Shown one piece after another: positions 2,623 through 50,530 of a DNA stretch of 64,000 nt. Source of the DNA: Rhynchopus sp. YZ270_cl-10 (Eukaryota); contig OZ037838.1 of NCBI GenBank assembly GCA_964035575.1, positions 806,001 through 870,000 of the forward strand. Reading direction: 5' to 3'. A program made the position numbers and the translations under genes. A model generated the notes under the pieces. That model was not told where the DNA came from and did no database searches. It saw only the letters and a list, made by a program, of their open reading frames with translations. Within the stretch, counting starts at the first letter, position 1. Each line of letters opens with the position of its first letter.

Positions 2623-2644
2623 ATGATTGTGTGTTTTTTATAGA

Positions 2645-12611: not shown

Positions 12612-13754
12612 ATGATGGATGTGACCTTTGTGCTGGAAGAGTCAGGCGTGACTGCGACAGTGGAGGTGCCGTGCGAGGCGGACGTTGCAGCGGCAAAGGA
12701 GGTTGCGTGCACGGCGCTTGCTGTCTCGCCTGCGTCTGTCGAGATGCGCATCGGCACGCAGGTGCTGGAGGGGACGTGCCGTCTGCAGGACACTGCGTTT
12801 GATGCAGGGGTGCAGGTTGTGCTTGCCTGTCCTCGCTTTGCCTACATCAAGTGTCCTGCTGAGTACACTGCAACTCATGTGCAAAGCTTGTCACTGTCGC
12901 GTTGTGGAACGCTGTGCGTCCATAGGGGGATGAGGAGTCGGTATGTTGACGGCTTCGACACAGAAACCTTCGACACTGTCTTTGAGTTCAAAATGGACAC
13001 TAACCTGAACACGGCACCGCCTGCGATCTCGCAGTGCAAGACACGTTGCTATCTGGCGTGTAATGATTACCTTCTCAAGGTTGCGCTTCCGGGTGGGGAG
13101 GTGGTCCGCAAAGTCGACGTCCCCTCGTACGCAGTGTTCGCGTGTGGCAATGTTGTTGTCTCGAAGGGCAAAGACGGCGTCTCTGTGTATGACGAAGACC
13201 TGACGTTGCTCCGCTCTCTCTCGCATGGCAGGCAACTAGGGTGCTGGAAGGTGGCAGTGTCTGACTGTGGTGGGTGGGTGATCACCTCCTCCTGGAAGGA
13301 GAAGAAGGCACGTCTGTGGGATGTGAACACAGGTGAAGCTGTGGCATGTGTGCCTGCGGATGAAAAGTGGGGTAGCGTGGCGCTTTCACGGTCTGCCTCT
13401 GTCTTTGCTGTAGGGTGCTTTGGCAACGTGCAGCTCTATGATTGGAGTGGTGTGGCTCTTCGCAGGATTGATATGGATGGGGATGGGGGTGTTGAGGTCA
13501 TACACTTCACCCCGTGTGGGAAGTACCTTGTGGTGGGGATACGTTTTGCAACGGAATCCGACGATGACGAAGCTTATGAGGATTACAATACACAACTGCA
13601 CCAGTATGATGTGGCGACCATGTCCCGTGTGCATGTGATACCGCAAACCTTTGGAGGGTACTTTGCGATATCGCCGTGTTCACGTGTTGGTGTGGCTATG
13701 CAATCAGATAGCGTCATTGTGATGAGACATCTGCACCCACACAACAGTGAGTGA
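12612..13754 (+). CDS. Ubl-WD40-like propeller family, copy 1
   Basis: 380-aa ORF; MDVTFVLEESG Ubl-like N-terminus; ARLWDVNTGE, FTPCGKYL; ends HLHPHNSE. Confidence 0.9.
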   Translation: MMDVTFVLEESGVTATVEVPCEADVAAAKEVACTALAVSPASVEMRIGTQVLEGTCRLQDTAFDAGVQVVLACPRFAYIKCPAEYTATHVQSLSLSRCGTLCVHRGMRSRYVDGFDTETFDTVFEFKMDTNLNTAPPAISQCKTRCYLACNDYLLKVALPGGEVVRKVDVPSYAVFACGNVVVSKGKDGVSVYDEDLTLLRSLSHGRQLGCWKVAVSDCGGWVITSSWKEKKARLWDVNTGEAVACVPADEKWGSVALSRSASVFAVGCFGNVQLYDWSGVALRRIDMDGDGGVEVIHFTPCGKYLVVGIRFATESDDDEAYEDYNTQLHQYDVATMSRVHVIPQTFGGYFAISPCSRVGVAMQSDSVIVMRHLHPHNSE

Positions 13755-14019
13755 TGTGTGACCAGGGGAGGGGAGGGGAGAGTAGTGATCAATAACCCAG
13801 GGTGCCAGCGAAAAAAAACCCAAGACCCTCAAAACACCCCAAGAAACACCCCTTTTAGCCCTGTTGCTGCTTTTCTCTTGTTTGCCTGCCACAGGTCGCC
13901 CACCTCACACGCTGCCCATGCGGTGCTCTGGTGTGGGTGACAGATCGCGATGCCGAGTGTTGCTTTCCATTCGTCACCTCTCAACGAGAACCCTGCCCTG
14001 TTGCAGGAATACGTATGAT

Positions 14020-14286
14020 TTAGCACCATGTGGATTGGCAAATGGTGTGGCAGCGAACGGAGTACCTGAAGCTCACAACTCTGCTGCCTTCATTGCCTCA
14101 AGTCACTTTCTTTTCGTTGTTTACCTAGCCTGTTCAAGAAAGCCATATCTGGGGGTTGGGCAGGGTAGCCTCTCGTTCTTGGAAAAAACATCAAAGTTCT
14201 GGATTTATGTTCTCATTCCCCCCCCTTTTTTTTTTGATGGGGTTTCGGGTTTTCCGAACTCGACCCTCACTGTAGTGGGGTCATTT
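14020..14286. repeat. Local duplication, second copy at ~27379-27644
   Basis: Near-identical GCACCATGTGGATTGGCAAATGG...CTCACTGTAGTGGGGTCATTTT. Part of it resembles ~10692-10721 inside the decayed LINE. Confidence 0.8.
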
Positions 14287-14866
14287 TTTTTTGGAAAAAT
14301 GGACAAGTTCTTGACTGTTACAAATTATGGTCATCATGTACCGTTTTTCCACCCACCTATCCGAACCGAACACAGCCCATTTGTCAATTCCGCCCAATTT
14401 TATTCAACTACACCCAATCACATGCACCACCAGCACAGCTCAGATTTTTTTGAGGAAGGCTTGCCACGGGGTGACCTGTTTTGCTTGCTCACACGGGAGG
14501 GGTAAGGGTCCAGCCTCTGAGCTGGAGTCAAACTGGAGACGCAACTAGAGGGTGTAACGATACCCGCTTTTCGGGTGTGTCACCCCTCGAAACGCGGGTG
14601 GCTGCATGAAAAAGAAGTGGCACACATTTTTTCCACTTGGTAACCCGGGGGAGGGACTGCATGCCTTCTTCTCACCTTTGCTTTTGTCGAGGCTTCTTAG
14701 CTACAACCGACCAAGACCACAGCAAAGCTTCTCACACAAGTTTGATTGTGATGTGGCGGGATTCTTTGTTCTCTGACACTGTGAGTACTGTCACAGACAG
14801 AACAACACCTCTCCCCACCCACCTCATCATCACCCCCGTTAGCAGTGGAGCAAAAAAGAAGAAACA

Positions 14867-16000
14867 ATGATGGATGTGACCTTTGTGCTGGAAGAGTCAG
14901 GCGTGACTGCGACAGTGGAGGTGCCGTGCGAGGCGGACGTTGCAGCGGCAAAGGAGGTTGCGTGCACGGCGCTTGCTGTCTCGCCTGCGTCTGTCGAGAT
15001 GCGCATCGGCACGCAGGTGCTGGAGGGGACGTACCGTCTGCAGGACACTGCCTTTGGTGCAGGAGTGCAGGTTGTGCTTGCCCACCCTCACTTGGCTGAC
15101 ATCAAGTGTCCTGCTGAGTGCAGTGTAGAGGTGCTAACTGGAACGCAGTGGATGTTTGTACATCGCTTTTCGCTGTCTCCTTGTGGAGCACTCTGCCTCT
15201 GTACACATAAGCAAGGCTCTGTCACCGGCCTCGATACAGAAACCTTCAGCCCTGCCTTCAAGTTCAAAGTAGACATTGTGATGTGCGGTGCGCCTGCCAT
15301 CTCGCAGTGCAAGACACGCTGCTACCTGGCGTGCAAGGAAGTCCTTCTCGGGGTTGCGCTTCCGGGTGGGGAGGTGGTCCGCAAAGTCGACGTCCCCTCG
15401 TACGAAGTGTTCGCGTGCGGCAGTGTTGTTGTCTCAAAAGGCAATGACGGCGTCTCTGTGTATGACGAAGACCTGATGTTGCTCCGCTCTCTCTCGCACG
15501 AAGAGTGTTGTAACGTGGCAGTGTCGGACTGTGGTGGGTGGGTGATCACCTCCTCTGAGAAGGAGAAGAACGTACGTCTGTGGGATGTGAACACAGGTGA
15601 AGCTGTGGCATGTGTGCCTGCGAGTGGGTGGTGTCTCGTGGCGCTTTCACGGTCTGCTTCTGTCTTTGCTGTGGCGGGGGTGGGAACCAGCGTGCACCTC
15701 TATGATTGGAGTGGTGCGGCTCTTCGCAGTATTGATGTGGACGGGTATGGCGACCGCATGCAGTTCGCCCCGTGTGGGAAGTACCTTCTGGTGCAGGTAT
15801 TTGATTCGGAAGATGAAGATGATAGTGATAACAATGCACGCCTGCAGCAGTATGATGTGGCGACCACGTCCTGTGTGCGTGTGCTGCTGGATACCTACGG
15901 TGAGTCATTTGCGATATCGCCATGTTCACGCGTTGTTGTGATTATGGAACCCTATGGCGTTATTGATACAAGACATCTGTACCCACACAACAGTGAGTGA
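14867..16000 (+). CDS. Ubl-WD40-like propeller family, copy 2
   Basis: 377-aa ORF with the same architecture. Confidence 0.9.
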   Translation: MMDVTFVLEESGVTATVEVPCEADVAAAKEVACTALAVSPASVEMRIGTQVLEGTYRLQDTAFGAGVQVVLAHPHLADIKCPAECSVEVLTGTQWMFVHRFSLSPCGALCLCTHKQGSVTGLDTETFSPAFKFKVDIVMCGAPAISQCKTRCYLACKEVLLGVALPGGEVVRKVDVPSYEVFACGSVVVSKGNDGVSVYDEDLMLLRSLSHEECCNVAVSDCGGWVITSSEKEKNVRLWDVNTGEAVACVPASGWCLVALSRSASVFAVAGVGTSVHLYDWSGAALRSIDVDGYGDRMQFAPCGKYLLVQVFDSEDEDDSDNNARLQQYDVATTSCVRVLLDTYGESFAISPCSRVVVIMEPYGVIDTRHLYPHNSE

Positions 16001-16567
16001 TGTGTGACCAGGGGAGGGGAGCAGACGTGAGGATAAGGTTTAGGGGTGCGGGTCTGGGGTGCGGGCTATTCTCTCGCGGGTGTGGGGTGGGAGTAAGGGG
16101 CTCGCGGTTTTTGGAGTGAACGACATGTTGGGTGTGGGGTGGGGGTGAGGGGATGTCTAAGTTGACTCCAACCTAGCTCAAAATTCACAAATGGGGCTTT
16201 CTCGTGTCTCCCTCCACGGTAAACGAGGGAGTAAATCAGTGCCGGGCAGGGTGCACAATGAACGTACCCAAAAAACACCGTTATTTGGATTTTCGGTGCC
16301 ACTACTGGGGATGAGGACTACACTGCGAATGACTTGTGTTTTCAAGCTTTTTTTCGTCGCCCAATTCACGTACCCGCGCTACACTATGCTCATGCTCGAA
16401 CACTACATCGTACGTGCCAACATTACGAACTCCCGCTAGGGAAATGGCATCAACCCTGACAACAAACTTGTGGGAACCCACGCAGCTGATGCTGCGCGAT
16501 AACGAATGTGTTCAAGGTGACTAAGCACAGAGAGGCTTAGGGTCATCTTACAAATCTTTCTCTTTTT

Positions 16568-17330
16568 TTGTGTCTCGGGGTCACCCCTGAGTGAGGTGTC
16601 CCTGTGTGAAACGCAAAGACATTTTATTGCGATGCATTCATTGTCTATCCTTCGTAGGTTTGCACATCACTTTCAAGGTTTTCGTGCTTTGAGAACGAAG
16701 AAGATGTCGTTCACCCCATTCATTTGTGTGCCCATTATTCCCTTTCCCTTCGTTTGTGTGGTTTTCAGATTTTTATGTTGAGAGAAATGAGCAGGATTGG
16801 ACGCCTGTGGTCATGATAAAAGCCGTGACGCCATTGAGCGACTCACAGACACATCAGTGATAGACGTTGTCGCTGTGGTATCCCGCCTCGCAGAGGAAGG
16901 TGTTTTTTGACACAGCAACTTCGTGAGTCAGTTACCGGTCTGCGAAGCAAATTGAAAACGGCGTGTTTGCGCTTCATATCGCAGAGGATAGAGAAACTGA
17001 AAAGTCATGAAAATACAAAACTAATGCTGCCTCAGCAGGGCAAGAACCAAAGGATGGTGGCCACGTTCAAAAGCAAAGCACAGTGGAACACATCCACACT
17101 AATACAACCAAGCTTTCAAAGACAAAACAAGACCTCTCCCCGACCTGTTTGTTGTCTCTTGCACACCACACCCGCACTCCCTACCTCCCTTTTGATACCT
17201 GTCTACGCCCACAGAGAGACATCCCTCCCGTCCCATCACGCTGCCCATGCGGTGCTCTCGTGTGGGTGACAGATCGCGATGTTGAGTATCATTTTCCATT
17301 TGTCACCTCTCACAACGAGAACCACCACAA
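16568..17330. repeat. Segmental duplication, second copy at ~50680-52790 interrupted by a TIR element
   Basis: Near-identical sequence from TGTGTCTCGGGGTCACCCCTGAGT to ACGAGAACCACCAC. Confidence 0.85.
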
Positions 17331-17436
17331 CATGCAACACAGAACAACACCTCTCCCCCACCCACCTCATCACTCTCTCCGTTTGTGGTGGAGCAAACGT
17401 GCTGATTTGCACCTTCTCACGAAGCAACGGAACACA

Positions 17437-18501: not shown

Positions 18502-18525
18502 TGTGTGACCAGGGGAGGGGAGGGG

Positions 18526-18840
18526 AGGGGGTCTCTTTAGGATAAAATATGGGGGGAAAGGTCTTTTTTGGTTAATAGCGCCGAAAAAACGGCAGCGAGG
18601 TATGTAGTCATGAGGGCGAGACTGGGGAAACACAACACAAAAATACTGATGAAGGTGGTGGTGAGATTTCCCCGTACCGTCCTCAACCAACCTTGCCGAA
18701 GCAAGTGGTAAGCAATAACAACAAAAGGGCACGTAGCAATAGATAAATGGTACGCGCAAAAAAAATATATCCATAGCGAAAAAGGGGGAGGGGGAAAAGA
18801 CTTTCTTATTCGCGACATATTTTATCCTAGAGACCCCCCT
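18526..18840. mobile_element. MITE-like insertion in the 3' flank of copy 3
   Basis: AGGGGGTCTC(TT)TAGGATAAAATATG ... CATATTTTATCCTAGAGACCCCCCT. Absent from the paralogous 3' flanks of copies 1, 9 and 10. Confidence 0.7.
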
Positions 18841-19166
18841 GGCGTAGCAAAGCTACTTAAACAAGTTTACAGTATGAGGGGAGGGAGGGTGGTGATCAAT
18901 ATAACCCAGGGTACAAGCAAAACAACCCAAGACCCTCAAAACACCCAAGAAACTCCCCTGCCTCACACGCTGCCCATGCAGTGCTCTCGTGTGGGTGACA
19001 GATCGCGATGTTGAGTATCATTTTCCATTTGTCACCTCTCACAACGAGAACCACCACAAACATGCAACACAGAACAACACCTCTCCCCCACCCACCTCAT
19101 CACTCCCTCCGTTTGTGGTGGAGCAAACGTGCTGATTTGCACCTTCTCACGAAGCAACGGAACACA

Positions 19167-26236: not shown

Positions 26237-27369
26237 ATGATGGATGTGACCTTTGTGCTGGAAGAGTCAGGCGTGACTGCGACAGTGGAGGTGCCGTGCG
26301 AGGCGAAGGTTGCAGCGGCAAAGGAGGTTGCGTGCACGGCGCTTGCTGTCTCGCCTGCGTCTGTCGAGATGCGCATCGGCACGCAGGTGCTGGAGGGGAC
26401 GTGCCGTCTGCAGGACACTGCGTTTGATGCAGGGGTGCAGGTTGTGCTTGCCTGTCCTCGCTTTGCCGACATCAAGTGTCCTGCTGAGTACAGTCTGCAG
26501 CAGCAAGCAGACAGCTTGTCGCTGTCGCGTTGTGGAACGCTGTGCGTCCATAAGGGGATTAGCAGTGCGCGTGTTGTTGGCTTCGACACAGAAACCTTCG
26601 ACACTGTCTTCTCGTTCGAAGTAGACACTAACGTGAGCACGGCTCCGCCTGCCATCTCGCAGAGCAAGACACGCTGCTACCTGCCGTGTTGGGAGGAAGG
26701 CCTTCTCGAGGTTGCGCTTCCGGGTGGGGAGGTGGTCCGCAAAGTAGACGGCCACTCGGGGTCAGTGTTCGCGTGTGGCAATGTTGTAAGGGCAAAGACG
26801 GTGTCTCTGTGTATGACGAAGACCTGACGTTGCTCCGCTCTCTCTCGCACGAAGGGTGCACGTGTGTGTCGGTGTCGGACTGTGGTGGGTGGGTGATCAC
26901 CTCCTCCTACAAGGAGAACAACGCACGTCTGTGGGATGTGAACACAGGTGAAGCTGTGGCATGTGTGCCTGCGGATGACACGGCCTGGCGAGAGTATGTG
27001 GCGCTTTCACGGTCTGCCTCTGTCTTTGCTGTGGAGGGCTCTGACAACGTGCAGCTCTTTGATTGGAGTGGAGCGGCTCTTGGCAGGATTGATGTGGGTG
27101 GGAGTGTGGAGGTGGCTGTGCAGTTCACCCCGTGTGGGAAGTACCTTGTGGTGGGCGTGGGAGTTGCGGAAGATGAACGTTACGACGATGAGGATGCTGG
27201 CAATCTTAAGCTGCACCAGTATGATGTGGCGACGATGGCCTGTGTACTTGTGATCCCGGACTTCACCGGTCTGTCATTTGCGATATCGCCGTGTTCGAGT
27301 GTGGTCGTGTTTGCGTTGTACGGCAGCACCAACATTGTAACAAGACATCTGTACCCCCACAACGAGTGA
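26237..27369 (+). pseudogene. Ubl-WD40-like propeller family, copy 7 (frameshifted)
   Basis: Split into ORFs 26177-26827 and 26686-27369. 7-nt deletion (TGTCTCG) at ~26787 relative to copy 1. Confidence 0.85.
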
Positions 27370-28568: not shown

Positions 28569-29749
28569 CAGCGTTCAAAAATACGTACTGATTCGTATTA
28601 ATACGTACGCGTATTAATACGTACGCGTATTAACATACAATGCAACGAGGCCGGGTACGCCTGAAAATACTCGTATCTGGAAAATATATCTGAGGCGTGC
28701 CTGAGGCGTACTCGGGATTAGTTACGTTTAAGTACGCCTCAGGCACGCCTGAGTATATATCAACGCATACTTGCGTTTCAGGCGCCTGGTGTGTATTTTC
28801 CCCCCGCAAAAAGGGCCTCTGATGCATTTCCGGAGCGATCTGAAAAAATTCCGGGGTCGGACAATTTTTTTAGCAAAAAATGCGTGACTTTAAGTTTGTA
28901 CCAAAAACCAGGGGAAAGTATACCCGGTTTCATATTTCTGCTGATATATAAAATTATTATGCACAGGTCATCACGTTTCTAAGGCATGCCATGTATTTCC
29001 TCCGCCCCCTGAAATGTGCTGAAATAAAATTTCGGTGTCCTGCTGAGAAAATTGCGGGGTCGCAAGATATTTTTAGTGGAAAAATATCATGGTTACTGCT
29101 TACAGTAAACTGCCTCCTAAAAAGAGGCTTCGCAGAAGATGAGTCATACCTCGGGTATGTATAAAAAAGTCCTTTGCTCACCCCATAGTTGTACTAAAAA
29201 TAGAGCTGTGGTCTGTGGATCAAGGAGGCCTGTGTAAAATTCTGGGATCTCGATGGGATCTCTCTAGTGTTAGAGGATCCAGCCTTGTATGAGCCTCTTC
29301 CGTCTTGCATCAAGTTGGGCCCCGAAGATCCCCAGTCGAAAGCATCCCCGAGATTTGTTTTCCAATGAAGTACCGAATGTGCCACCAAAATATATATCAT
29401 CAGCACCAAGGCTTAGCGAACCCTTTTCATTTTTTCGACTCGATCGGCCCACAGGTACATTTTTCATCGTGCGACCCCGCATTTGAAAGATTTTGCTACC
29501 TCTGAATCGAAAGCCACAAAATTTGGGGGTAAATACTTTTTTGTTCATGACCAAAATGCTGGTAGAAATATAAATATACTCAGGCGTGCCTGAGGCGTAC
29601 TTAAACGTAACTAATCCCGAGTACGCCTCAGGCACGCCTGAGTATTTATTTTCAGGCCTTGGCGAGGCCGACTCGGCCTCGTTGCATTGTATGTATTAAT
29701 ACGTATTAATAGAATACGTGGGGGGTATGTCACGTATTTTAGAACACTG
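28569..29749. mobile_element. Small outer MITE (CAGYGTTC termini) interrupted by the 28634-29693 element
   Basis: CAGCGTTCAAAAATACGT ... ACGTATTTTAGAACACTG; flanks GGTAGGGGT/GGTAGGGAT form an imperfect TSD. Confidence 0.65.
28634..29693. mobile_element. Non-autonomous TIR element with CATAC...GTATG termini and 6-bp TSD TATTAA
   Basis: CATACAATGCAACGAGGCCG ... CGGCCTCGTTGCATTGTATG. Subterminal palindromes AGGCGTGCCTGAGGCGTAC at both ends. TATTAA on both flanks. Confidence 0.8.
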
Positions 29750-33174: not shown

Positions 33175-34305
33175 ATGATGGATGTGACCTTTGTGCTGGA
33201 AGAGTCAGGCGTGACTGCGACAGTGGAGGTGCCGTGCGAGGCGAAGGTTGCAGCGGCAAAGGAGGTTGCGTGCACGGCGCTTGCTGTCTCGCCTGCGTCT
33301 GTCGAGATGCGCATCGGCACGCAGGTGCTGGAGGGGACGTGCCGTCTGCAGGACACTGCGTTTGATGCAGGGGTGCAGGTTGTGCTTGCTCGCCGCTTTG
33401 CCGACATCAAGTGTCCTGCTGAGTACACAGCAACTCATGTGGAAAACTTGTCACTGTCGCGTTGTGGAACGCTGTGCCTCGTTAGTGATGATGCAACTGT
33501 TGTTGGTTTCGACACAGAAACTTTTGACACTGTCTTCTCGTTCACGTCGAATGCTTCACTACGCGCTGCACCTGCCATCTCGCAGTGCAAGACACGCTGC
33601 TACCTGCGGTGTTGGCAGGAAGGCCTTCTCGAGGTTGCGCTTCCGGGTGGGGAGGTGCTCCGCAAAGTCGACGACACCTCAGTGTCAGTGTTCGCGTGTG
33701 GCAGTGTTGTTGTCACGGAGGGTATTGACGGCGTCTCTGTGTATGACGAAGACCTGACGTTGCTCCGCTTTCTCTCGCATGAACGGTGTATGAAATTTGC
33801 AATATCGGACTGTGGTGGGTGGGTGATCACCTCCTCCAACAGTGAGAAGAACGCACGTCTGTGGGATGTGAACACAGGAGAAGCTGTGGCATGTGTTCCG
33901 ACGAGAGTGGGGTGTTGCGTGGCGCTTTCACGGCCTGCCTCTGTCTTTGCTGTGTCGGACTCTGGCACTGTGGACGATGGGTATGCGTGGGGGAACAACG
34001 TGCACCTCTACGATTGGAGTGGTGTGGCTCTTCGCAGTGTTGATGTGGAGGGTCGTGTCGAGCGCATGCAGTTCGCCCCGTGTGGGAAGTACCTTGTGTC
34101 CCACGAAGAATATGATGAAGACAATGTAGACCTGCACCAGTTCGATGTGGCAACCATGTTCTGTGTGCATGTGATACCGCTAACCTATGGTGGGCCATTT
34201 GCCATATCACCGTGTTCACGTGTCGTTGTGTTACGGTATGAGGACGAAAGCGGTACAACAAGCGGCATTGTAACAAGGCATCTGTACCCACACAACAGTG
34301 AGTGA
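33175..34305 (+). CDS. Ubl-WD40-like propeller family, copy 8
   Basis: 376-aa ORF with the family architecture. Confidence 0.9.
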   Translation: MMDVTFVLEESGVTATVEVPCEAKVAAAKEVACTALAVSPASVEMRIGTQVLEGTCRLQDTAFDAGVQVVLARRFADIKCPAEYTATHVENLSLSRCGTLCLVSDDATVVGFDTETFDTVFSFTSNASLRAAPAISQCKTRCYLRCWQEGLLEVALPGGEVLRKVDDTSVSVFACGSVVVTEGIDGVSVYDEDLTLLRFLSHERCMKFAISDCGGWVITSSNSEKNARLWDVNTGEAVACVPTRVGCCVALSRPASVFAVSDSGTVDDGYAWGNNVHLYDWSGVALRSVDVEGRVERMQFAPCGKYLVSHEEYDEDNVDLHQFDVATMFCVHVIPLTYGGPFAISPCSRVVVLRYEDESGTTSGIVTRHLYPHNSE

Positions 34306-34805: not shown

Positions 34806-35897
34806 ATGATGGATGTGACCTTTGTGCTGGAAGAGTCAGGTGTGACTGCGACAGTGGAGGTGCCGTGCGAGGCGGACGTTGCAGCGGCAAAGGAGGTTGC
34901 GTGCACGGCGCTTGCTGTCTCGCCTGCGTCTGTCGAGATGCGCATCGGCACGCAGGTGCTGGAGGGGACGTGCCGTCTGCAGGACACTGCGTTTGATGCA
35001 GGGGTGCAGGTTGTGCTTGCCCGCCGCTTTGCCGACATCCAGTGTCCTGCTGAGTACACTGCCCGTGTAGAAGGATTGTCGCTGTCGCGTTGTGGCACGC
35101 TCTGTGTCTATGTTTGTGATAGGAATGTAGCTGGCTTCGACACAGAAACCTTCGACACTGTCTTCTCGTTCGAAATGTGGACTAAAGTGTACGGTCGGCC
35201 TGCCATCTCGCAGTGCAAGACACGCTGCTACCTGGCGTGTTGGAGTAAAGGCCTTCTCGAGGTTGCGCTTCCGGGTGGGGAGGTGGTCCGCAAAGTCGAC
35301 GACACCTCCAAAGCAGTGTTCGCCTGTGGCGGTGTTGTTGTCTCAAAGAGCACAGACGGCGTCTCTGTGTATGACGAAGACCTGACGTTGCTCCGCTCTC
35401 TCTCGCACGAAAGGTGTTGGGACATGTCAGTGTCTGACTGTGGTGGGTGGGTGATCACCTCCTCCATGAGGGAGAGCAACGTACGTCTGTGGGATGTGAA
35501 CACAGGTGAAGCTGTGGCATGTGTGCCTGCTGATGGGTGGTGTTGCGTGGCGCTTTCACGATCTGCTTCTGTGTTTGCTGTGAGCTGTTTTGGCAACGTG
35601 CAGATCTATGATTGGAGTGGTGCGGCTCTTCGCAGCGTTGGTATGGGTGGGGATGTCAAGTGCATGCAGTTCACCCCGTGTGGGAAGTACTTTGTAGTCT
35701 GGGTAGATGACGATGACACAGAGGACGATTACAGTACACCCCTGCACCAGTATGATGTGGCGACCATGTCCCGTGTGCGTGTGATGTTGCAATGTTCAGG
35801 TGCATTTGCGATATCGCCGTGTTCACGTGTTGTTGTGCTATTGGAAGAAGGTACCGTCATTGTGACGAGACATCTGTACCCACACAACAGTGAGTGA
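34806..35897 (+). CDS. Ubl-WD40-like propeller family, copy 9
   Basis: Family ATG at 34806 within ORF 34746-35897. Confidence 0.9.
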   Translation: MMDVTFVLEESGVTATVEVPCEADVAAAKEVACTALAVSPASVEMRIGTQVLEGTCRLQDTAFDAGVQVVLARRFADIQCPAEYTARVEGLSLSRCGTLCVYVCDRNVAGFDTETFDTVFSFEMWTKVYGRPAISQCKTRCYLACWSKGLLEVALPGGEVVRKVDDTSKAVFACGGVVVSKSTDGVSVYDEDLTLLRSLSHERCWDMSVSDCGGWVITSSMRESNVRLWDVNTGEAVACVPADGWCCVALSRSASVFAVSCFGNVQIYDWSGAALRSVGMGGDVKCMQFTPCGKYFVVWVDDDDTEDDYSTPLHQYDVATMSRVRVMLQCSGAFAISPCSRVVVLLEEGTVIVTRHLYPHNSE

Positions 35898-36269
35898 TGT
35901 GTGACCAGGGGAGGGGAGGGAGAGTGGTGATCAATATACCCCATGGTACCAGCAAAACAACCCAAGACCCTCAAAACACCCCCATTCGTGTTGAGACATC
36001 GGTACCCACACAACAGTGAGCGATGTTTTTCTTTGTAAAGACCCCTTTGCTTTGCGACGTTGCCCTGTGGTGCGGCCTCATGGGGAGGGAATGAGTGTCG
36101 CGTTTGCTTCTTGTTGGGTGGGCATTTGAATGTTTCGGCTTCCCCCACTCCCACCCCGCCACCCCTGATCGTTTCATCGACCTGAACTCTTCCCTCACAC
36201 CCACTTCTTTGACTGTTGTTTTGCCTCTGGGCTTTTCCCTTTACATTCCCACAGCTTACACTACATGCC

Positions 36270-39135: not shown

Positions 39136-39746
39136 TGTGTGACCAGGGGAGGGGAGGGAGGGTGGTAATAAATATACCCCAGGGTACCAGCAAAACAACC
39201 CAAGACCTTCAAAACCCATTGTTGAGACATCTGTACCCACACAACAGTGAGCGATGTTTTTCTTTGTAAAGACCCCTTTGCTTTGCGACGTTGCCCTGTG
39301 GTGCGGCCTCATGGGGAGGGAATGAGTGTCGCGTTTGCTTCTTGTTGGGTGGGCATTTGAATGTTTCGGCTTCCCCCACTCCCACCCCGCCACCCCTGAT
39401 CGTTTCATCGACCTGAACGCTTCCCTCACACCCACTTTTTGACTGTTGTTTTGCCTCTGGGCTTTTCCCTTTACACATTCCCACAGCTTACACTACATGC
39501 TATGTGGACATATCCTGAATGTTCCGATATTATTCGAAATTATCTCTCCAAAAAAAGAGCACATCACCATGCTACGACCTTAGGGGCTGTCCACACCTGC
39601 TTTTCAAGCACACACACACACACACCGCCCACTTTATGTATTTTCCTCCCCAAAACTTTTCCTCCCAGAATTTCTACACAAAAAAACTGCTTGGTTTCCA
39701 CCAATCTGTCGTTTTTTTTCTCTTTTCTTTTCATCTATACCCCACA

Positions 39747-41045
39747 ATGTCAAACCCCGGAACACCACGTTCAGTGAGGACACCACCTCGAACACCTCTG
39801 AGTGGTGCCTCTGCCGCAATGCGTGTTACAGAGTTGGTGGAGGCAGGGGCGACGGCGAAAGACGCGGAGCGTGTTCTGATGGGGCAGACGGCGCTTGCGG
39901 AGATATGCTTGACACGCGAAGAGGTGGAGGCTGTGGCTGCAGAAGCGTGGCTGGAAGTGGGGAGCGCAGTGACGTGCAGTACGCTGGCTGCGCGCGGACG
40001 AGAGAGGATGGGATTCCACATTGTGGATGTGCGTGAGACGGGTCGTGTACCCGAGGTGCCACTTCGCAGAGAGTATGAGCAGCACCACGACCACGGAGCG
40101 GTGCGTCGTGCCCTCCGCCTAGCACCACGTGAACAGCATACGCGCTTTGAGCATACGCTCCGCATGCTGCACACCCCGCAGCGTGCCCAGCGCTGGCGTG
40201 CGCACCACCGCCACACCCCATCTGCCACCCTCCGCAAGCCGCCCAAGACCCTCTTCTACGTCTCGCTTGCGAACATCCCCCTCACAGCAGCGCGCACCTT
40301 GCTCCTCGCAGAGGGGGTGGCGGCGTGCCCCTTTCTGGGCTTCCTGTCGCTGGCAGGGTGCGGCATTGGGGAAGGGGAGGGGTTCGCGCCACTGTGCGAC
40401 GTGCTTGCGCAGCATAAAAGCATCGCAAGGCTGGATGTGTCTGGGAACAGATTGCGTGCTTCTGGTGCGGAGACGGTGTCGCGTGTGGTGCGTGCCGTGG
40501 CGCTGACGCATCTGGATGTTAGTCTGAATGGAATTGGCGATGTGGGTGTGGGTGCGCTGTGCACAGCTGTGCTAGGGTGTGCAGGGTCGGTGTTGTGTTC
40601 GTTGAACCTATCTTGCAATGCGATTGGTGCGAAGGGGGGGTGGCATTTGTCACGCCTAGTGCGCGACCACGCACCGCTACGCACGCTGCTCTGCTGGAGG
40701 AACAACCTTGCCGTCCGTCCACGCCGTCTGGCGCACTCAGGGGCGCGCTATCTCTTTGAGACCGTGCCCGGTTCAGCCCTGCAGGAGCTCAACCTCGCAC
40801 ACAACAGCATCACGCAGGAGGACGTCTCGCTTCTTCTCGACGCCTTCCGTGCGCACCGTACGCAGCACGGCCACAGCAGCACCGGTCGCTGCCACGTAGT
40901 CCTAAGCGGCGGGAACAGCCTCCCACAAACACAGCTTGCGGAGCTCGCACAGTACTGCACACCGATCGCCCCAGCAGCAGATACAGCGCTTATCAGCAGA
41001 CTGCACGCTGCAGGGACGTTCTGGTGTGAAGAGGAGTGTGGGTAA
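39747..41045 (+). CDS. Ribonuclease-inhibitor-type leucine-rich repeat protein
   Basis: ~28-aa repeats: LSLAGCGIG, LDVSGNRLRASGA, LDVSLNGIGDVGV, LNLSCNAIGAKG, LQELNLAHNSI. Confidence 0.85.
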   Translation: MSNPGTPRSVRTPPRTPLSGASAAMRVTELVEAGATAKDAERVLMGQTALAEICLTREEVEAVAAEAWLEVGSAVTCSTLAARGRERMGFHIVDVRETGRVPEVPLRREYEQHHDHGAVRRALRLAPREQHTRFEHTLRMLHTPQRAQRWRAHHRHTPSATLRKPPKTLFYVSLANIPLTAARTLLLAEGVAACPFLGFLSLAGCGIGEGEGFAPLCDVLAQHKSIARLDVSGNRLRASGAETVSRVVRAVALTHLDVSLNGIGDVGVGALCTAVLGCAGSVLCSLNLSCNAIGAKGGWHLSRLVRDHAPLRTLLCWRNNLAVRPRRLAHSGARYLFETVPGSALQELNLAHNSITQEDVSLLLDAFRAHRTQHGHSSTGRCHVVLSGGNSLPQTQLAELAQYCTPIAPAADTALISRLHAAGTFWCEEECG

Positions 41046-41629: not shown

Positions 41630-42760
41630 ATGATGGATGTGACCTTTGTGCTGGAAGAGTCAGGCGTGACTGCGACAGTGGAGGTGCCGTGCGAGGCGGA
41701 CGTTGCAGCGGCAAAGGAGGTTGCGTGCACGGCGCTTGCTGTCTCGCCTGCGTCTGTCGAGATGCGCATCGGCACGCAGGTGCTGGAGGGGACGTGCCGT
41801 CTGCAGGACACTGCGTTTGGTGCAAGGGTGCAGGTTGTGCTTGCCCGCCCTCGCTTTGCCGACATCAAGTGTCCTGCTGAGTATAGTGGGTTTGCAGAAT
41901 ACTTATCACTGTCGCGTTGTGGAACGCTCTGCGTTTTTTCGGACTTGACTGGGGAGTTAGGTGGCTTCGACACAGAAACATTCGACACCGTCTTCTCGTT
42001 TGTAATATATAATGGTGTGTGCGGTCCGCCTGCCATCTCGCAGTGCAAGACACGCTGCTACCTGGCGTGTTGGGATTGCCTTGTCGAGGTTGCGCTTCCG
42101 GGTGGGGAGGTGCTCCGCAAAGTCGACGGCTACTCGTACGCAGTGTTCGCGTGTGGCAGTGTTGTTATCTCCCAGGGCACAGGCGGCGTCTCTGTGTATG
42201 ACGAAGACCTGACGTTGCTCCGCTCTCTCTCGCACGAAGGCTGCACCTGTGTGTCGGTGTCGGACTGTGGTGGGTGGGTGATCACCTCCTCCTACAGTGA
42301 GCATAACGCACGTCTGTGGGATGTGAACACAGGTGAAGCTGTGGCATGTGTGCCCGTGTCAGGGGTCAATGTGGCGCTTTCACGGTCTGTCTCGGTCTTT
42401 GCTGTGGCAGGGAACAACACCGTGCACCTCTATGATTGGAGTGGTGCGGCTCTTCGCAGTTTTGATGTGGGTGGGGATATTGAGAGCATGCAGTTCACCC
42501 CGTGTGGGAAGTACCTTGTGGTAATGATGCGTGTTGCGGACTGCATACATGATACAGATGATGAAGAATATGATGGTTACAATGTACACCTGCACCAGTT
42601 CGATGTGGCAACCATGTCCTGTGTGCATGTGATACCGCTAACCTATGGGAAATTTGCGATATCACCATGTTCACGTGTCGTTGTGTTACGGTATGAGGAC
42701 GAAAGCGGTACAACAAGCGGCATTATAACAAGGCATCTGTACCCACACAACAGTGAGTGA
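41630..42760 (+). CDS. Ubl-WD40-like propeller family, copy 11
   Basis: Family ATG at 41630 within ORF 41570-42760. Confidence 0.9.
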   Translation: MMDVTFVLEESGVTATVEVPCEADVAAAKEVACTALAVSPASVEMRIGTQVLEGTCRLQDTAFGARVQVVLARPRFADIKCPAEYSGFAEYLSLSRCGTLCVFSDLTGELGGFDTETFDTVFSFVIYNGVCGPPAISQCKTRCYLACWDCLVEVALPGGEVLRKVDGYSYAVFACGSVVISQGTGGVSVYDEDLTLLRSLSHEGCTCVSVSDCGGWVITSSYSEHNARLWDVNTGEAVACVPVSGVNVALSRSVSVFAVAGNNTVHLYDWSGAALRSFDVGGDIESMQFTPCGKYLVVMMRVADCIHDTDDEEYDGYNVHLHQFDVATMSCVHVIPLTYGKFAISPCSRVVVLRYEDESGTTSGIITRHLYPHNSE

Positions 42761-44372: not shown

Positions 44373-44624
44373 GTACTGCGGTGTGTTGCTATCGTGCGTT
44401 GCATCAGTATTTGCGTTGCACCCTCGACCTACTAGCTTGTGAGGAAATATATTGAGACATTTTGTGGATAACGACCACACCACCCTTTACCTCTTTTTCA
44501 CTTGTGCCTTGTTAAAACACTCTTCTGTTGGTGCGAACCACCGACACAATAAAAATATCGCAAACACAAACAACCCACACCTCATCTCCTCCCAACAGAG
44601 GTGGAACAAGAAGAAGACAAAACA

Positions 44625-46696
44625 ATGGATGTGACCTTTGTGCTGGAAGAGTCAGGCGTGACTGCGACAGTGGAGGTGCCGTGCGAGGCGGACGTTGCAG
44701 CGGCAAAGGAGGTTGCGTGCACGGCGCTTGCTGTCTCGCCTGCGTCTGTCGAGATGCGCATCGTCACGCAGGTGCTGGAGGGGACGTGCCGTCTGCAGGA
44801 CACTGCGTTTTGTGCAGGGGTGCAGATCGTGCTTGCCCGCCCTCGCTTTGCCGACATCAAGTGTCCTGCTGAGTACACTGCACAGATGTGATGATCTTAT
44901 CGCTGTCGCATTGTGGAACACTCTGCATCTATTATGACTGGAGTGGGCATGTTGGCGGCTTCGACACAGAAACCTTTGACACTGTCTTCTCGTTCGAAGT
45001 GGACAATGAGGTGCACGGTGCGCCTGCCATCTCGCAGTGCAAGACACGCTGCTACCTGGCGTGTTGGAGTAAAGGCCTTCTCGAGGTTGCGCTTCCGGGT
45101 GGGGAGGTGCTCCGCAAAGTCGATGGCACTCCGCACGCAGTGTTCGCGTGTGGCGGTGTTATTCTCTCCCAAGGCACAGACGGCGTCTCTGTGTATGACG
45201 ATGACCTGACGTTGCTCCGCTCTCTCTCGCACAAGCAGTGCAGGAAGATGGCAGTGTCGGACTGTGGTGGGTGGGTGATCACCTCCTCCGAAGGGAAAGA
45301 GGCACGTCTGTGGGATGTGAACACAGGTGAAGTTGTGGCATGTGTGCCTGCGGAGGGGTGGTGCGCAGTAGTGGCACTTTGCAGACTATTGTGCAGCGAA
45401 GCTTTCACGGTCTGCTTCTGTCTTTGCTGTGGTCTTTGCTGAGGCGGGGAACAACAACGTGCACCTCTATGATTGGAGTGGTGCGGCTCTTCGCAGTGTT
45501 GATGTGGGTGGGATTGTCGAGAGCATGCAGTTCACCCCATGTGGGAAGTACTTTGTAGCCAAGCTGCATGTTCCGGAATGCATATGGGTCGATGCGTAAA
45601 ACCCCCCCTCCCCGGGTTTTGGGGCTGTAAGTGAAATTAAGGCAAAATATTACACCAACAATACATTTTTTTATTGCACAACGGGGCACTTTTATTTCAC
45701 AACCCGGGGGTCTGCTAAACGCTTAGTTCTCAAGGCTTACGTTCATCGTATCAACTTCCCTTTGGTGTTGGGGTTATCTTCATTCAAATTTTTCTCTTTT
45801 CGAAATATCTTTATCTCCTGTATCACAACCTTGCAGAGTTGCTGATGTCCGACCTAAACACCATTGAGGCAGATGGAGTGGCCACTCCACAGGCAGCACT
45901 GTTCCCGTAGGTGGGCACACCCCACCCCCACCAGCCGCATCCGCATCCATCTAAGGTGAAACACGTGAAAAAATCCCTCAGATGGTCAAAATACCCAAAT
46001 TTTGCGTTTTTTTGCATTTTTCGGTACCCCAAGACCCCACCCAGGAGTCGAAATTTTCCGGGGAAAAAATTTTTTTTTTCCCCGATTTTTCGGATTTTTG
46101 CTAAGGCGCTGGCCCATACAAACCGGTTTTTTGTACAGAAAATGACCGGGGAATAAATATGTGATGCTCAAAACATCAAAATTCTTGCTTTATTTGCATT
46201 TTTGGGTCCATCTGAGCCCAAAAAAAAATTTTTTTTTCGGCTGAAAATTTTGTCTTTGCGAAAAAAAAAAAAAAAATCGAGCAGTGAAATAAAGAGTGAA
46301 ATAAAGAGTGAAATAAAGAAATAAAGCCTTTTTTATTTCACTGCCGTTTTTATTTTTCTACAGGAATTTGTTAGGGGAGTGAAATTAAAGTGCCCCGACG
46401 TGCAATAAAAAAAAATCAAAAATCGTAGTGAAATTTAGGGGAGGGGGGGTTTTACGCATTCACCCATATATGATACAGATGATGACGAAGAAATGATTGC
46501 TAGTGGCTACAATGTGCAACTCCACCAGTATGATGTGGCGACCATGTCTTGTGTGCGTGTGATCCCGCAAAGCTCAGATGGGACATTTACGATATCACCA
46601 TGTTCGCGTGTGATTGTGTTAGTAGGGGATGAGGACGAAAGCGGTACAACAAGCGGCATTGTAACAAGGCATCTGTACCCACACAACAGTGAGTGA
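44625..46696 (+). pseudogene. Ubl-WD40-like propeller family, copy 13 (disrupted)
   Basis: Frameshift/stop at ~44885, small insertion at ~45376-45400, and an 880-bp TIR element at 45586-46465. Coding sequence resumes at 46466 and runs to HLYPHNSE. Confidence 0.88.
45586..46465. mobile_element. Non-autonomous TIR element with GGG termini and 4-bp TSD ATAT
   Basis: GGGTCGATGCGTAAAACCCCCCCTCCC ... GGGAGGGGGGGTTTTACGCATTCACCC. Empty site GAATGCATATATGATGC is present in copy 5 (~21388-21404). Confidence 0.88.
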
Positions 46697-47519
46697 TGTT
46701 TCGCGAGGGGTGGGAGGGTGGTGACTGTATTCTGACAGAAGGGGACAGTGCAAGTGTCTGCAGAGGGTATACCATCAACTGCATAGGCCACACCGTCAAT
46801 CTAGCTCAAGCGGACCGCTTTTCACACATAACACACAAAGACTTCGTTGTGTATTTTTTTTCATATTGGTATCGTTTCTTGTTGACTCTTTATTTGTGAA
46901 GATGTGCGTGCACGAGAGTCATATTCATGTTTCAGGTTTTATTTGCTTACTTTTCCATGAGGATCCAATCCGTTAAACGGAAACACAACCAGCGGTTGTG
47001 TGGTTTATGATCGTACTCTTAACGTTCAAAAGAAATCAAACAAAATCAAAAGGGGAGAAAATGTGGGAGGAATCTGTTTTCAATTGGCACTGTTAGTGCG
47101 GAAGGTACGTGCGGGGAGGGACGAGAGTGGGGAACGGGAAAAGGCGAAACTGTTTTTTTCCCTGCTGAATATGGTGATTGTTTGTTTCTCCCCAGCCCCA
47201 GTTCCTACCCTGCCAAAGCAGGAGGTAAAAAGAAATAGCATCCCTCCTTTTTTGTTTAGAGTATACTCTCAAACCCCACACAACGCACTTTCAGTGCCTT
47301 ACGGTGCTGCTAAATGTGGTGACCTTCCCCGTTCACACCACAGTGAAGGCAAGTCGTGAGGTTTCTTTTCACATCTCGTGTGTGTTTGCAGGGTATCTTC
47401 AAGTTGCTTGTTTGTTCAGAGTTTGTTGAAACACGTATTCAACCCACCAACCTTCTTATTTGTCGTTGCGAAGTGACACCACCAACCATCACATCAAACA
47501 CAACAGACCCCTTAACAAT

Positions 47520-48655
47520 ATGATGGATGTGACCTTTGTGCTGGAAGAGTCAGGCGTGACTGCGACAGTGGAGGTGCCGTGCGAGGCGGACGTTGCAGCG
47601 GCAAAGGAGGTTGCGTGCACGGCGCTTGCTGTCTCGCCTGCGTCTGTCGAGATGCGCATCGGCACGCAGGTGCTGGAGGGGACGTGCCGTCTGCAGGACA
47701 CTGCGTTTCGTGCAGGGGTGCAGGTTGTGCTTGCCCGCCGCTTTGCCAACATCAAGTGTCCTGCTGAGTATAGTGAGCAGAATACTTGTCGCTGTCGCGT
47801 TGTGGAACGCTCTGTGTTTTTTCGGACTTGACTGGGGAGTTAGGTGGCTTCGACACAGAAACCTTCGACACTGTCTTCTCGTTTTTATTGGATAATGATG
47901 CGTGCGGTCCGCCTGCCATCTCGCAGTGCAAGACACGCTGCTACCTGCCGTGTTGGAAAGACTTACGCAAGGTTGCGCTTCCGGGTGGGGAGGTGGTCCG
48001 CAAAGTCGAGGGCACCTCAGACTCAGTGTTCGCGTGTGGCGGTGTTGTTGTCTCGAAGGGCAAAGACGGCGTCTCTGTGTATGACAAAGACCTGACGTTG
48101 CTCCGCTCTCTCTCGCACGAAGGGTGCTGGGGTATGGCAGTGTCGGACTGTGGTGGGTGGGTGATCACCTCCTCCTCCATTGAGAACACGCGTCTGTGGG
48201 ATGTGAACACAGGAGAAGCTGTGGCATGTGTGCCTGCGGATGCCACAGACTGGTGTTGCGTGGCGCTTTCACGGTCTGCCTCTGTCTTTGCTGTGGAGGG
48301 CTCTGGCAACGTGCACCTCTTTGATTGGAGTGGTGCGGCTCTTCGCAGTGTTGATGTGGGTGGGGATGTCACGGGCATGCAGTTCACCCCATGTGGGAAG
48401 TACCTTGTGGTCAAGGTGATTGTTGCGGAAGACATATCTGATACATATGATGAAGAATCTGAAGAATATGATGGTTACAATGCACATCTCCACCAGTATG
48501 ATGTGGCAACCATGTCCCGTGTGCATGTGATCCCGCAAACCTGTGGTGGGACATTTGCGATATCACCATGTTCACGTGTGGTTGTGTTAGGGTGTGACGA
48601 AAGTACAACAAGCGGCATCGTAACAAGGCATCTGTACCCACACAACAGTGAGTGA
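47520..48655 (+). pseudogene. Ubl-WD40-like propeller family, copy 14 (frameshifted)
   Basis: Split into ORFs 47460-47831 and 47786-48655. Net 4-nt deletion at ~47775 relative to copies 6 and 11. Confidence 0.85.
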
Positions 48656-49441
48656 TGTTTCGCGAGGGGTGTGAGGGTGGTGACTTTTTTCTGACACACG
48701 AGTCATATTCATGTTTCAGGTTTTATTTGCTTACTTTTCCATGAGGATCCAATCCGTTAAACTGAAACACAAACCGGCCGACAAGCGGTTGTGTACCTTC
48801 CCCGTTCACAGTACGGGCAAGCCGCGAGGTTTCTTTTCACATCTCCTGTGTATTTGCAGGGTATCGTCATTGTTTGTATCGTTTTTTGTTGACTCTTTTT
48901 TTGTGAAAGATGTGTTGGACGATCTATGAACCGTGAGAGATGTTTTTACTAGCTCTCAGTAGCGTCTCACAGGTTCTCACTAACTCTCCCTAAGTTATGA
49001 GGTGTCTTTTTTTACTTTGTCGTGTGCCTGTAAGCTCTTGTGTCTCCACAGATGTCCACATTTATTTTTTTTTTGGAGAGTAAAAATTTATTTGGAGACA
49101 TGCCTTTGCCAAAACACATCTCTTTTTGTTGTAAAATAGACAATGTATATTATGTGGTGGTCAAAAATGCAAAGCTCCTTCGCCAATGGATTTATTGGGT
49201 GTGTGTTATACCGGGACAAGTGGTCAGATCACTTAGGTGTTTTCAACCTTCCCCCTTCACCACAGTACGGGCAAGCCGCGAGGTTTCTTTTCACATCTCC
49301 TGTGTATTTGCAGGGTATCTTCAAATTGCTCGCTTGTTCAGAGTTTTTTGAAACACGTAATTAACCCACCAACCTTCTTATTTGTCATTGCGAAGTGACA
49401 CCACCAACCATCACATCAAACACAACAGACCCCTTAACAAT

Positions 49442-50530
49442 ATGATGGATGTGACCTTTGTGCTGGAAGAGTCAGGCGTGACTGCGACAGTGGAGGTGCC
49501 GTGCGAGGCGGACGTTGCAGCGGCAAAGGAGGTTGCGTGCACGGCGCTTGCTGTCTCGCCTGTGTCTGTCGAGATGCGCATCGGCACGCAGGTGCTGGAG
49601 GGGACGTGCCGTCTGCAGGACACTGCGTTTGATTCAGGAGTGCAGGTTGTGCTTGCCCGCCCTCGCTTGGCCGACATCAAGTGTCCTGCTGAGTACGATG
49701 TACAGGACATTTTAAAGATGACCGCGAGGTCGTTGAGGCTGTCGCGTTGTGGAAAGCTCTGCGTCTATAGTAATGGAAGTAGTCATGTTGGCGGCTTCGA
49801 CACAGAAACCTTCTACACTGTTTTCTCGTTTTTATTGGATACTGGTGTGTGCGGTCCGCCTGCCATCTCGCAGTGCAAGACACGCTGCTACCTGCCGTGT
49901 TGGAAAGACTTACACAAGGTTGCGCTTCCTGGTGGGGAGGTGCTCCGCAAAGTCGACGGCCCCTCGTACGCAGTGTTCGCGTGTGGCAGTGTTGTTGTCT
50001 CACGAGGCGATGAAGGCGTCTCTGTGTATGACGAAGACCTGACGTTGCTCCGCATTCTCTCGCATGAGCAGTGCAGGAATGTGGCAGTATCGGACTGTGG
50101 TGGGTGGGTGATCACCTCCTCCAACAAGGAGAAGAACGCACGTCTGTGGGATGTGAACACAGATGTTGATGTGGCATGTGTGCCTGTTGAGGGGTGGTGT
50201 TGCATGGAGCTTTCACGATCTGCCTCTGTCTTTGCTGTGGTGGGCTCTGGCAACGTGCACCTCTATGATTGGAGTGGTGTGGCTCTTCGCTCTCTGGGCA
50301 GGGATGGGGATGTCGAGTGCATGCAGTTCACCCCGTGTGGGAAGTACCTTGTGGTAAAGGGAACCCACGTGCTCCACCAGTATGATGTGGCAACCATGTC
50401 CTGTGTGCGTTGGGTCCCGCAAGCCTATGATACGTCATTTGTGATATCGCCGTGTTCACGTGTTCTTGTGGCTACGCAACCAAATGGCGCCATTGCGACA
50501 AAGCATCTGTACCCACACAACAGTGAGTGA
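49442..50530 (+). CDS. Ubl-WD40-like propeller family, copy 15
   Basis: Family ATG at 49442 within ORF 49382-50530. Confidence 0.9.
   Translation: MMDVTFVLEESGVTATVEVPCEADVAAAKEVACTALAVSPVSVEMRIGTQVLEGTCRLQDTAFDSGVQVVLARPRLADIKCPAEYDVQDILKMTARSLRLSRCGKLCVYSNGSSHVGGFDTETFYTVFSFLLDTGVCGPPAISQCKTRCYLPCWKDLHKVALPGGEVLRKVDGPSYAVFACGSVVVSRGDEGVSVYDEDLTLLRILSHEQCRNVAVSDCGGWVITSSNKEKNARLWDVNTDVDVACVPVEGWCCMELSRSASVFAVVGSGNVHLYDWSGVALRSLGRDGDVECMQFTPCGKYLVVKGTHVLHQYDVATMSCVRWVPQAYDTSFVISPCSRVLVATQPNGAIATKHLYPHNSE

What the first reader, a model, noticed from the sequence alone, without database searches (positions are those of the whole stretch)
12612..50530. Constant-Ubl / variable-propeller repertoire: 15 paralogs with hypervariability confined to one predicted propeller face
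Seen: the first ~70 aa are almost invariant even at DNA level. The remainder has seven repeats whose first strands read LSLS, PAIS, VFAC, VAVS, VALS, MQFT and FAIS. The turns SRCGT, DTETF, SQCKT, LPGGE, DEDL, SDCGG, DVNTGE, SRSAS, DWSG, TPCGK, DVATMS and SPCSR are strongly conserved. The segments before each strand A and between strands B and C differ in sequence and length in nearly every copy (about 14 variable patches). Known: DA and BC loops form the top, ligand-binding face of WD40 propellers, and Ubl domains often dock on the proteasome, p97 or E3 machinery. No signal peptide or TM segment is evident. Inference: an antibody-like intracellular receptor or adaptor family with a constant effector module and a variable binding surface, plausibly targeting pathogen proteins for degradation. 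Analogous to expanded F-box/BTB adaptors or fungal HET-E WD40 diversification. I do not recognise it as a described system.
Basis: partly seen in the sequence, partly recalled or inferred. Interest (0 to 1): 0.92.

Follow-up and report, generated by a model that had tools for sequence, protein, structure and literature searches.

The report
Variable-faced ubiquitin-propeller gene repertoire
A single-celled eukaryote carries well over a hundred look-alike genes for a protein predicted to join a near-constant ubiquitin-like handle to a propeller with one face that differs in almost every copy, which likely makes them a large set of intracellular binders for many, still unknown, targets.

Summary
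The array is real: 15 co-oriented, intronless copies (12 intact, 3 frameshifted), part of a family of at least 120 proteins, 90 of them on the window's own contig. Predicted folds are a ubiquitin-like domain (TM about 0.8 to ubiquitin) and a seven-bladed WD40-type propeller. Of 55 hypervariable codons defined on independent paralogs, 54 lie on the top face. The bottom face is under purifying selection. Diversifying selection on the top face is supported but borderline once recombination and synonymous-rate variation are allowed (p about 0.03-0.05 in one test, about 0.1 in another). It also lacks ubiquitin's I44 patch and di-glycine. Copies are mosaics, and silent diversity falls with distance from variable codons. 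Best reading: a conversion-shuffled repertoire of cytosolic binders with a shared handle, working like nematode F-box adaptors or fungal HET-E repeats but belonging to neither family. Targets, expression and the degradation link are untested. The scan noted similar WD40 arrays in other genomes, with no ubiquitin-like domain mentioned.

The parts
12615..13754 (+). intact copy, 379 aa
14870..16000 (+). intact copy, 376 aa
17437..18501 (+). intact copy, 354 aa
19167..20300 (+). intact copy, 377 aa
20476..21618 (+). intact copy, 380 aa
24233..25351 (+). intact copy, 372 aa
26240..27369 (+). frameshifted copy (break near 26788, in blade 3)
33178..34305 (+). intact copy, 375 aa (reference used for numbering and folding)
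33178..33387 (+). near-invariant ubiquitin-like domain, aa 1-70 (same position in every copy)
33421..34281 (+). predicted seven-bladed WD40-type propeller, aa 82-368, closed by an N-terminal strand; DA and BC loops hypervariable, AB and CD turns conserved
34809..35897 (+). intact copy, 362 aa
38005..39135 (+). intact copy, 376 aa
38230..38373 (+). tract shared with copy 49445 (49670-49813) while the rest differs: likely gene-conversion tract
   Evidence: 65 consecutive polymorphic sites identical, global p 0.001
41633..42760 (+). intact copy, 375 aa
43272..44372 (+). intact copy, 366 aa, most divergent in the window, ends YPY
44625..46696 (+). broken copy: frameshifts near 44885 and 45380, plus an insertion of about 884 nt
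45582..46469 (.). MITE-like insertion with 32-nt terminal inverted repeats in the BC6 loop of the broken copy
47523..48655 (+). frameshifted copy (break near 47776, in the DA1 loop)
49445..50530 (+). intact copy, 361 aa

Best explanation
This is a large gene family whose members join a near-identical, predicted ubiquitin-like domain to a predicted seven-bladed propeller that differs between copies almost only on one face, and it likely works as a repertoire of intracellular binders: the variable face would grip many different, probably foreign, proteins and the shared domain would hand them to one common cellular machine. Shown: the copies, the one-face variation, purifying selection on the other face, mosaic sharing of loop segments, and silent diversity that falls with distance from variable codons. 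Inferred: gene conversion keeps overwriting the uninterrupted 210-nt ubiquitin-like segment and the short conserved turns, while selection for new specificities, new point changes, in-frame indels and segment swaps keep the 14 top-face patches different. Guessed: the common machine belongs to the ubiquitin-proteasome or AAA-ATPase system and is engaged through a surface other than the I44 patch; the targets come from viruses, bacteria or symbionts.
For: Family size: the best 120 of 414 hits all score E<=5e-140; 90 of 120 lie on the window's contig, 23 on a second. Folds: propeller pLDDT mostly above 85, best solved matches WD40 proteins; N-domain pLDDT 79, TM 0.70-0.81 to ubiquitin-family chains in the rows listed; a profile of 14 family N-domains hits single ubiquitin chains at E about 1e-5. 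One face: 54 of 55 codons with entropy >=2 bit in 89 independent paralogs are top-face. Bottom face dN/dS 0.40-0.45, upper bound 0.61. At the 55 codons in the 12 intact window genes, second-position over four-fold-site difference is 1.64 (bootstrap 1.16-2.58); neutral recombining simulations reach it in 25, 20 and 28 of 600. Site models give a class with omega 1.9-5.1 in 6 of 6 fits, LRT 30-351. Mosaicism: one 42-codon shared tract at global p 0.001, 3 of 66 pairs at p<=0.05, PHI p 0.003; correlation between loop distance matrices falls from 0.13 for adjacent loops to about 0 at 4-6 loops; 4 of 4 listed copies on another contig share a private N-domain with 7 changes. Silent diversity at conserved codons: 0.27, 0.18, 0.14, 0.07 at 1, 2-3, 4-6 and 7+ codons from a variable codon, and 0.018 in the N-domain. 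HET-E selected sites also lie in the d-a loop and b-c turn (PMC1805685, section read).
Against: Averaged over the whole top face the ratio is 0.99 (0.74-1.34) and counting dN/dS is 1.08-1.27. The strictest site-model LRT (28.4) was reached by 2 of 21 neutral recombining simulations, and falls to 6.9 on the 167 codons far from gaps. Only 12 genes had usable DNA, and loop alignment is uncertain. PHI on 15 purely synonymous sites was not significant (p 0.76), and PHI and tract tests are sensitive to rate patches. Loop correlation rises again to 0.03-0.09 at long range. N-domain dN/dS is about 1 on very few changes, so no protein-level constraint is shown inside the family; against the 6 most distant paralogs it is about as conserved (27-43%) as the bottom face (33-39%). 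Ubiquitin L8, I44, V70 align to E9, R45, A71 and there is no di-glycine. No target, partner or transcript was observed.
Confidence: 0.55

Rival explanations
1. Neutral amplification with relaxed constraint. The gene multiplied by duplication; only the fold is selected; top-face loops drift, and once divergent they block gene conversion locally, which by itself would give variable islands in a homogenised frame.
For: Top-face average ratio 0.99; strict site test reached by 2 of 21 null runs; silent sites are also more diverse near variable codons; 3 of 15 copies are broken; family found at high similarity only in unnamed ENA records, apparently one lineage.
Against: Ratio 1.64 at independently chosen codons, reached in 20-28 of 600 neutral runs; second-position diversity on the top face (0.35) is over twice the silent diversity of the interleaved bottom face (0.15); 12 of 15 copies keep their frame although loop lengths vary widely; top face is the least conserved part against all 13 diverged relatives compared.
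Confidence: 0.2
2. A targeted diversifying mechanism (error-prone short-tract conversion or templated hypermutation) raises the mutation rate at the loops, so that variation is generated there rather than merely kept there.
For: Silent diversity climbs to 0.27-0.30 in and next to variable codons; models improve with double-nucleotide changes, fitted rate 0.13-0.20; indels cluster in loops, and 2 of the 4 frameshifts located lie in the DA1 loop.
Against: No strong base bias on the top face (variant alleles per site: A 1.7, C 1.2, G 1.5, T 1.1), unlike adenine-specific retroelement diversification (recalled). No reverse-transcriptase family among the 7 non-family ORFs scanned; other ORFs were not scanned. 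Selection on linked sites explains the same gradient.
Confidence: 0.12
3. The repertoire is adaptive, but its targets are not pathogens and the handle is not for degradation: for example self/non-self recognition between cells, an internal genetic conflict, or sorting of many own proteins to an AAA-ATPase as Rsa4 and Ytm1 do.
For: HET-E propellers recognise a polymorphic self protein (PMC1805685). UBL domains of Rsa4 and Ytm1 are handles for the AAA-ATPase Rea1, not the proteasome (PMC6624252 passages). The I44 patch is absent.
Against: Nothing tested against it; over a hundred distinct surfaces fit a moving foreign target more simply (inference). No NLE-domain hit.
Confidence: 0.13

Closest known systems
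Podospora anserina HNWD/NWD family (HET-E, HET-D) (PMC1805685; abstract and one results section read)
   Same: WD40 propeller as variable recognition surface; selected sites in the d-a loop and b-c turn; concerted evolution reshuffles variants.
   Different: HNWD has 10 members; its units of exchange are near-identical repeats. Here whole small genes number over a hundred, blades within a protein are unlike each other, there is no NACHT or HET domain, and the constant part is a ubiquitin-like domain.
Nematode F-box and MATH-BTB adaptor expansions (seen only as a citing passage in PMC4334554; original paper not held)
   Same: Constant docking module plus positively selected substrate-binding module, rapid birth and death, proposed role against foreign proteins.
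   Different: No F-box, BTB or SOCS hit here; the constant module is a ubiquitin fold with unknown partner.
Rsa4/NLE1 and Ytm1/WDR12 (PMC6624252 passages; their UBL-plus-WD40 layout is recalled)
   Same: N-terminal ubiquitin-like domain followed by a WD40 propeller; the UBL serves as a handle for a machine.
   Different: Conserved ribosome-assembly factors; no NLE-domain hit and not among the best 60 solved-structure hits; no diversified face.
Midnolin (PMC12088389 abstract)
   Same: UBL plus a substrate-catching domain delivers proteins to the proteasome without ubiquitination: the model for the guessed mechanism.
   Different: Single gene, Catch domain not a propeller, needs a C-terminal helix for RPN1, which the model here lacks.
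Giant-virus BTB/POZ-WD-repeat proteins
   Same: Small constant module plus propeller, many paralogs; best viral fold matches.
   Different: 8-14% identity, generic propeller similarity, BTB instead of ubiquitin fold; no relative found in viral contigs.

Membership tests
WD40-type seven-bladed beta-propeller | seven four-stranded blades closed into a ring | tested here: met
   predicted model with 28 strands; Foldseek best hits ODA16, G-beta, WDR5 at E about 1e-15
WD40-type seven-bladed beta-propeller | Pfam WD40 repeat above the curated cut-off | tested here: not met
   0 of 12 intact copies reach 27 bits; best 25.8; a divergent propeller
Ubiquitin-like (beta-grasp) domain | beta-beta-alpha-beta-beta fold superposable on ubiquitin | tested here: met
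   (TM about 0.8, rmsd 1.2-3.3 A in listed rows); Pfam ubiquitin hits below cut-off in 3 of 10 diverged paralogs; no Pfam ubiquitin hit for the window domain alone
Conjugatable ubiquitin-like modifiers / ubiquitin fusions | di-glycine after the last strand | tested here: not met
   ubiquitin G75-G76 fall on D76-I77 by the register
UBL-UBA proteasome shuttles (Rad23/Dsk2 type) | L8-I44-V70 hydrophobic patch (role recalled) | tested here: not met
   aligned to E9, R45, A71
UBL-UBA proteasome shuttles (Rad23/Dsk2 type) | UBA domain | tested here: not met
   no hit at E<=0.1 in 12 of 12; no room in the model
HNWD / fungal NLR | NACHT and HET domains | tested here: not met
   354-380 aa ORFs, no such hit in 12 of 12
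HNWD / fungal NLR | positive selection at d-a loop and b-c turn | tested here: inconclusive
   location met (54 of 55), excess of replacement changes borderline
HNWD / fungal NLR | concerted evolution | tested here: met
   between paralogs rather than between repeats
Cullin adaptors (F-box, BTB, SOCS-box) | F-box, BTB or SOCS motif | tested here: not met
   no hit at E<=0.1 in 12 of 12
NLE1/WDR12 (Rsa4/Ytm1) | NLE-type UBL domain | tested here: not met
   no NLE hit among 12 proteins at E<=0.1 or 12 at E<=1
NLE1/WDR12 (Rsa4/Ytm1) | conserved glutamate that binds the Rea1 MIDAS metal | not tested
   no alignment to Rsa4 or Ytm1 was obtained
Immune receptor repertoire (functional class) | expression, binding of foreign ligands, protective effect | not testable with these tools
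   needs transcript data and bench work

The most novel reading that the evidence does not exclude
A protist has evolved an antibody-like cytosolic repertoire of several hundred ubiquitin-fold/propeller proteins, reshuffled by gene conversion anchored on the constant exon-like segment, that capture invader proteins and deliver them for destruction without needing a ubiquitin ligase.
Probability: 0.25. Interest if true: 0.93.

Novelty: new variant of a known kind. Interest (0 to 1): 0.75.

Why it matters
How free-living protists recognise viruses and bacteria inside the cell is largely open. A repertoire of over a hundred natural binders on one fixed scaffold makes this testable: the variable positions are known, so paralogs can be screened for targets and the shared domain for its partner. 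It would also be a natural library of propeller binders, and a clear case of gene conversion and selection acting at the scale of a few codons.

Tried and rejected
No whole genome is held, so DNA-level tests used 12 of the 15 window copies; the 3 broken ones were left out except for the 210-nt comparison. Expression: no RNA holder listed among 5 runs; the runs laid cover spacers and behave like DNA; this says nothing on expression. Contig depth in the constant domain is hundreds of times that of the flank (25000 against 88-100 in X1; 1594-3333 against 7.4 in X5), but the tool states depth is no copy number, so it is not used as a count. RNA structure as cause of the DNA invariance: z -1.13, 30 of 200 shuffles fold as well: rejected. 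No relatives in metagenome contigs (0 of 146 pattern matches) or viral contigs (0 of 10). HMMER over 1.84 billion representatives gave, besides family members and fragments, long proteins with many WD40-like stretches. Lineage is not settled: a neighbouring AMMECR1 protein is closest to two EukProt transcriptome proteins (55%, 50%) with no organism shown; the accession look-up could not be made; 'euglenozoan, perhaps diplonemid' is my guess from intronless co-oriented genes. Protein atlas and the wide VIA fold search gave no answer. No complex was predicted: no candidate partner was on hand. Searches for a published description returned 0 papers or unrelated listings; the library lacks most subscription journals. 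No supplements were read.
Full report
Observation. The window holds 15 co-oriented, intronless copies of one gene between 12615 and 50530. Twelve are intact (354-380 aa). Three are frameshifted, one of them also hit by an 884-nt element with terminal inverted repeats. Four other genes on the same strand lie among the copies: a clathrin-adaptor small chain (27815), an AMMECR1 protein (31490), an ORF with no Pfam hit (36270) and an LRR protein (near 39750). Short-read contigs match several unique spacer stretches without differences.

Family size. A search with one copy gave 414 hits at E<=0.001; the best 120 were listed, all at E<=5e-140. That these contigs belong to one assembly is inferred. 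The other 294 hits were not seen. Mean pairwise identity among 125 members is 73% (64-91%). Diverged relatives with the same two-domain layout exist at 47-63% and 26-30% identity; the 10 proteins looked up are all unnamed single-member ENA records.

Structure. With a 100-sequence alignment, residues 81-370 fold at block pLDDT 80-97 except one loop, as 28 strands, and match WD40 propellers. The N-domain folded only with diverged relatives in the alignment (pLDDT 79) and then matches ubiquitin, parkin Ubl and ISG15 at TM about 0.8. A profile of 14 N-domains independently hits ubiquitin. In that register L8, I44 and V70 fall on E9, R45 and A71, and there is no di-glycine. No hydrophobic segment was found in 12 of 12. 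Faces were assigned from the strand list and standard propeller topology, not from coordinates.

One face varies. Entropy over 100 proteins is 0.08 bit (N-domain), 0.27 (AB/CD turns), 0.5 (bottom strand halves), 1.5 (top strand halves) and 2.6 (DA/BC loops). Of 55 gap-free codons with entropy >=2 bit in 89 paralogs outside the window, 54 are top-face. Against 13 diverged relatives the top face is always the least identical part.

Selection. The bottom face is under purifying selection (dN/dS 0.40-0.45). For the top face the picture is mixed. Counting gives 1.08-1.27, and a symmetric single-step ratio gives 0.99. My own site models find a class with omega 1.9-5.1 in 6 of 6 fits; in the simplest fit 42 of 43 flagged codons are top-face, against 116 of 257 overall. 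But the strictest fit (LRT 28.4) was reached by 2 of 21 neutral simulations with recombination and drops to 6.9 away from gaps. The least biased test chose codons on the 89 outside paralogs and measured them in the 12 window genes: ratio 1.64 (1.16-2.58), reached in 25, 20 and 28 of 600 neutral recombining runs. I read this as likely, not proven, diversifying selection.

The constant domain. Its four-fold sites differ by 0.018, against 0.148 on the bottom face and 0.212 on the top face. It differs by 1.6% among seven copies whose shared upstream flank differs by 5.1%, and equally little between copies with unlike upstream flanks (2.1% against 1.9%). Four copies on another contig share their own version with 7 changes. 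It does not fold as a notable RNA. Selection on protein cannot fix silent sites, so ongoing gene conversion is the likely cause. The domain's persistence in all relatives, at 66-89% identity in six mid-distance subfamilies against 59-76% for the bottom face, says it matters, but not what it binds.

Shuffling. Copies 38005 and 49445 share blade 1 almost exactly and differ elsewhere; nearest neighbours change from blade to blade; 3 of 66 pairs carry significant shared tracts. Upstream and downstream flank types occur in mixed combinations. Silent diversity at conserved codons falls from 0.27 next to a variable codon to 0.07 seven or more codons away. This fits short conversion tracts that homogenise uninterrupted stretches and fail, or are selected against, at the variable patches. 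Against: PHI on synonymous sites alone was not significant.

Mechanism. Most likely each protein is a cytosolic adaptor: the top face binds a target, and the ubiquitin-like domain on the opposite side docks on a shared machine. The binder reading rests on anatomy and evolution (about 0.7). That the targets are foreign and that the machine degrades them are analogies to nematode F-box/MATH-BTB genes (passage in PMC4334554) and midnolin (abstract of PMC12088389); the missing I44 patch speaks against a Rad23-like route. Rsa4 and Ytm1 show a UBL can instead be a handle for an AAA-ATPase (passages of PMC6624252).

Comparison and novelty. It works like HET-E in surface and evolutionary mode (PMC1805685, abstract and section 10) but lacks NACHT and HET domains. 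It has no cullin-adaptor motif and no NLE domain hit. Three searches for such a family returned no paper and two returned unrelated listings; the library is incomplete. The scan's notes list two WD40 arrays with variable top faces in other genomes, with no ubiquitin-like domain mentioned; none on this genome or sequence. Verdict: a real, large, apparently undescribed variant of the diversified-adaptor theme; function untested. Interest 0.75.

Noticed in passing
window 5099-6280 (+): A distant, single gene with a possible beta-grasp N-terminus (weak RA-domain hits) and a WD40-type propeller, ending in a basic stretch and CKCC, which looks like a lipid-anchor signal (recalled). Only weak similarity to the family (hhalign probability 40%).
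   Followed up: partly
window 45582-46469: MITE-like element with 32-nt terminal inverted repeats and an apparent ATAT (or TA) duplication, inserted in a broken copy; contig depth about 20 times the flank suggests it is repeated elsewhere.
   Followed up: partly
window 28569-29749: Second element of about 1.2 kb with long nested inverted repeats and internal palindromes, between the adaptor small-chain and AMMECR1 genes.
   Followed up: no
window 61318-62075: 152 perfect-like copies of the 5-mer TGTAC.
   Followed up: no
window 52744-54564 (+): 606-aa cysteine-rich ORF with several hydrophobic stretches and no Pfam hit at E<=0.01; resembles prominin/tweety-type membrane proteins by eye (recalled).
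   Followed up: no
window 35997-36023 and 39228-39254: Short repeats of the gene's last 27 nt just downstream of copies 34809 and 38005.
   Followed up: no
protein P0111 and P0123: Family members with an internal duplication of about one blade, so blade number may also vary.
   Followed up: no
whole family: Proteins are acidic (mean net charge about -18) and about 5% cysteine; the BC6 loop is often an acidic run of up to 30 residues, which could favour basic or nucleic-acid-binding targets.
   Followed up: no
window 1621-54564: All recognisable genes lie on the + strand without evident introns, as in polycistronic euglenozoan genomes (recalled).
   Followed up: partly
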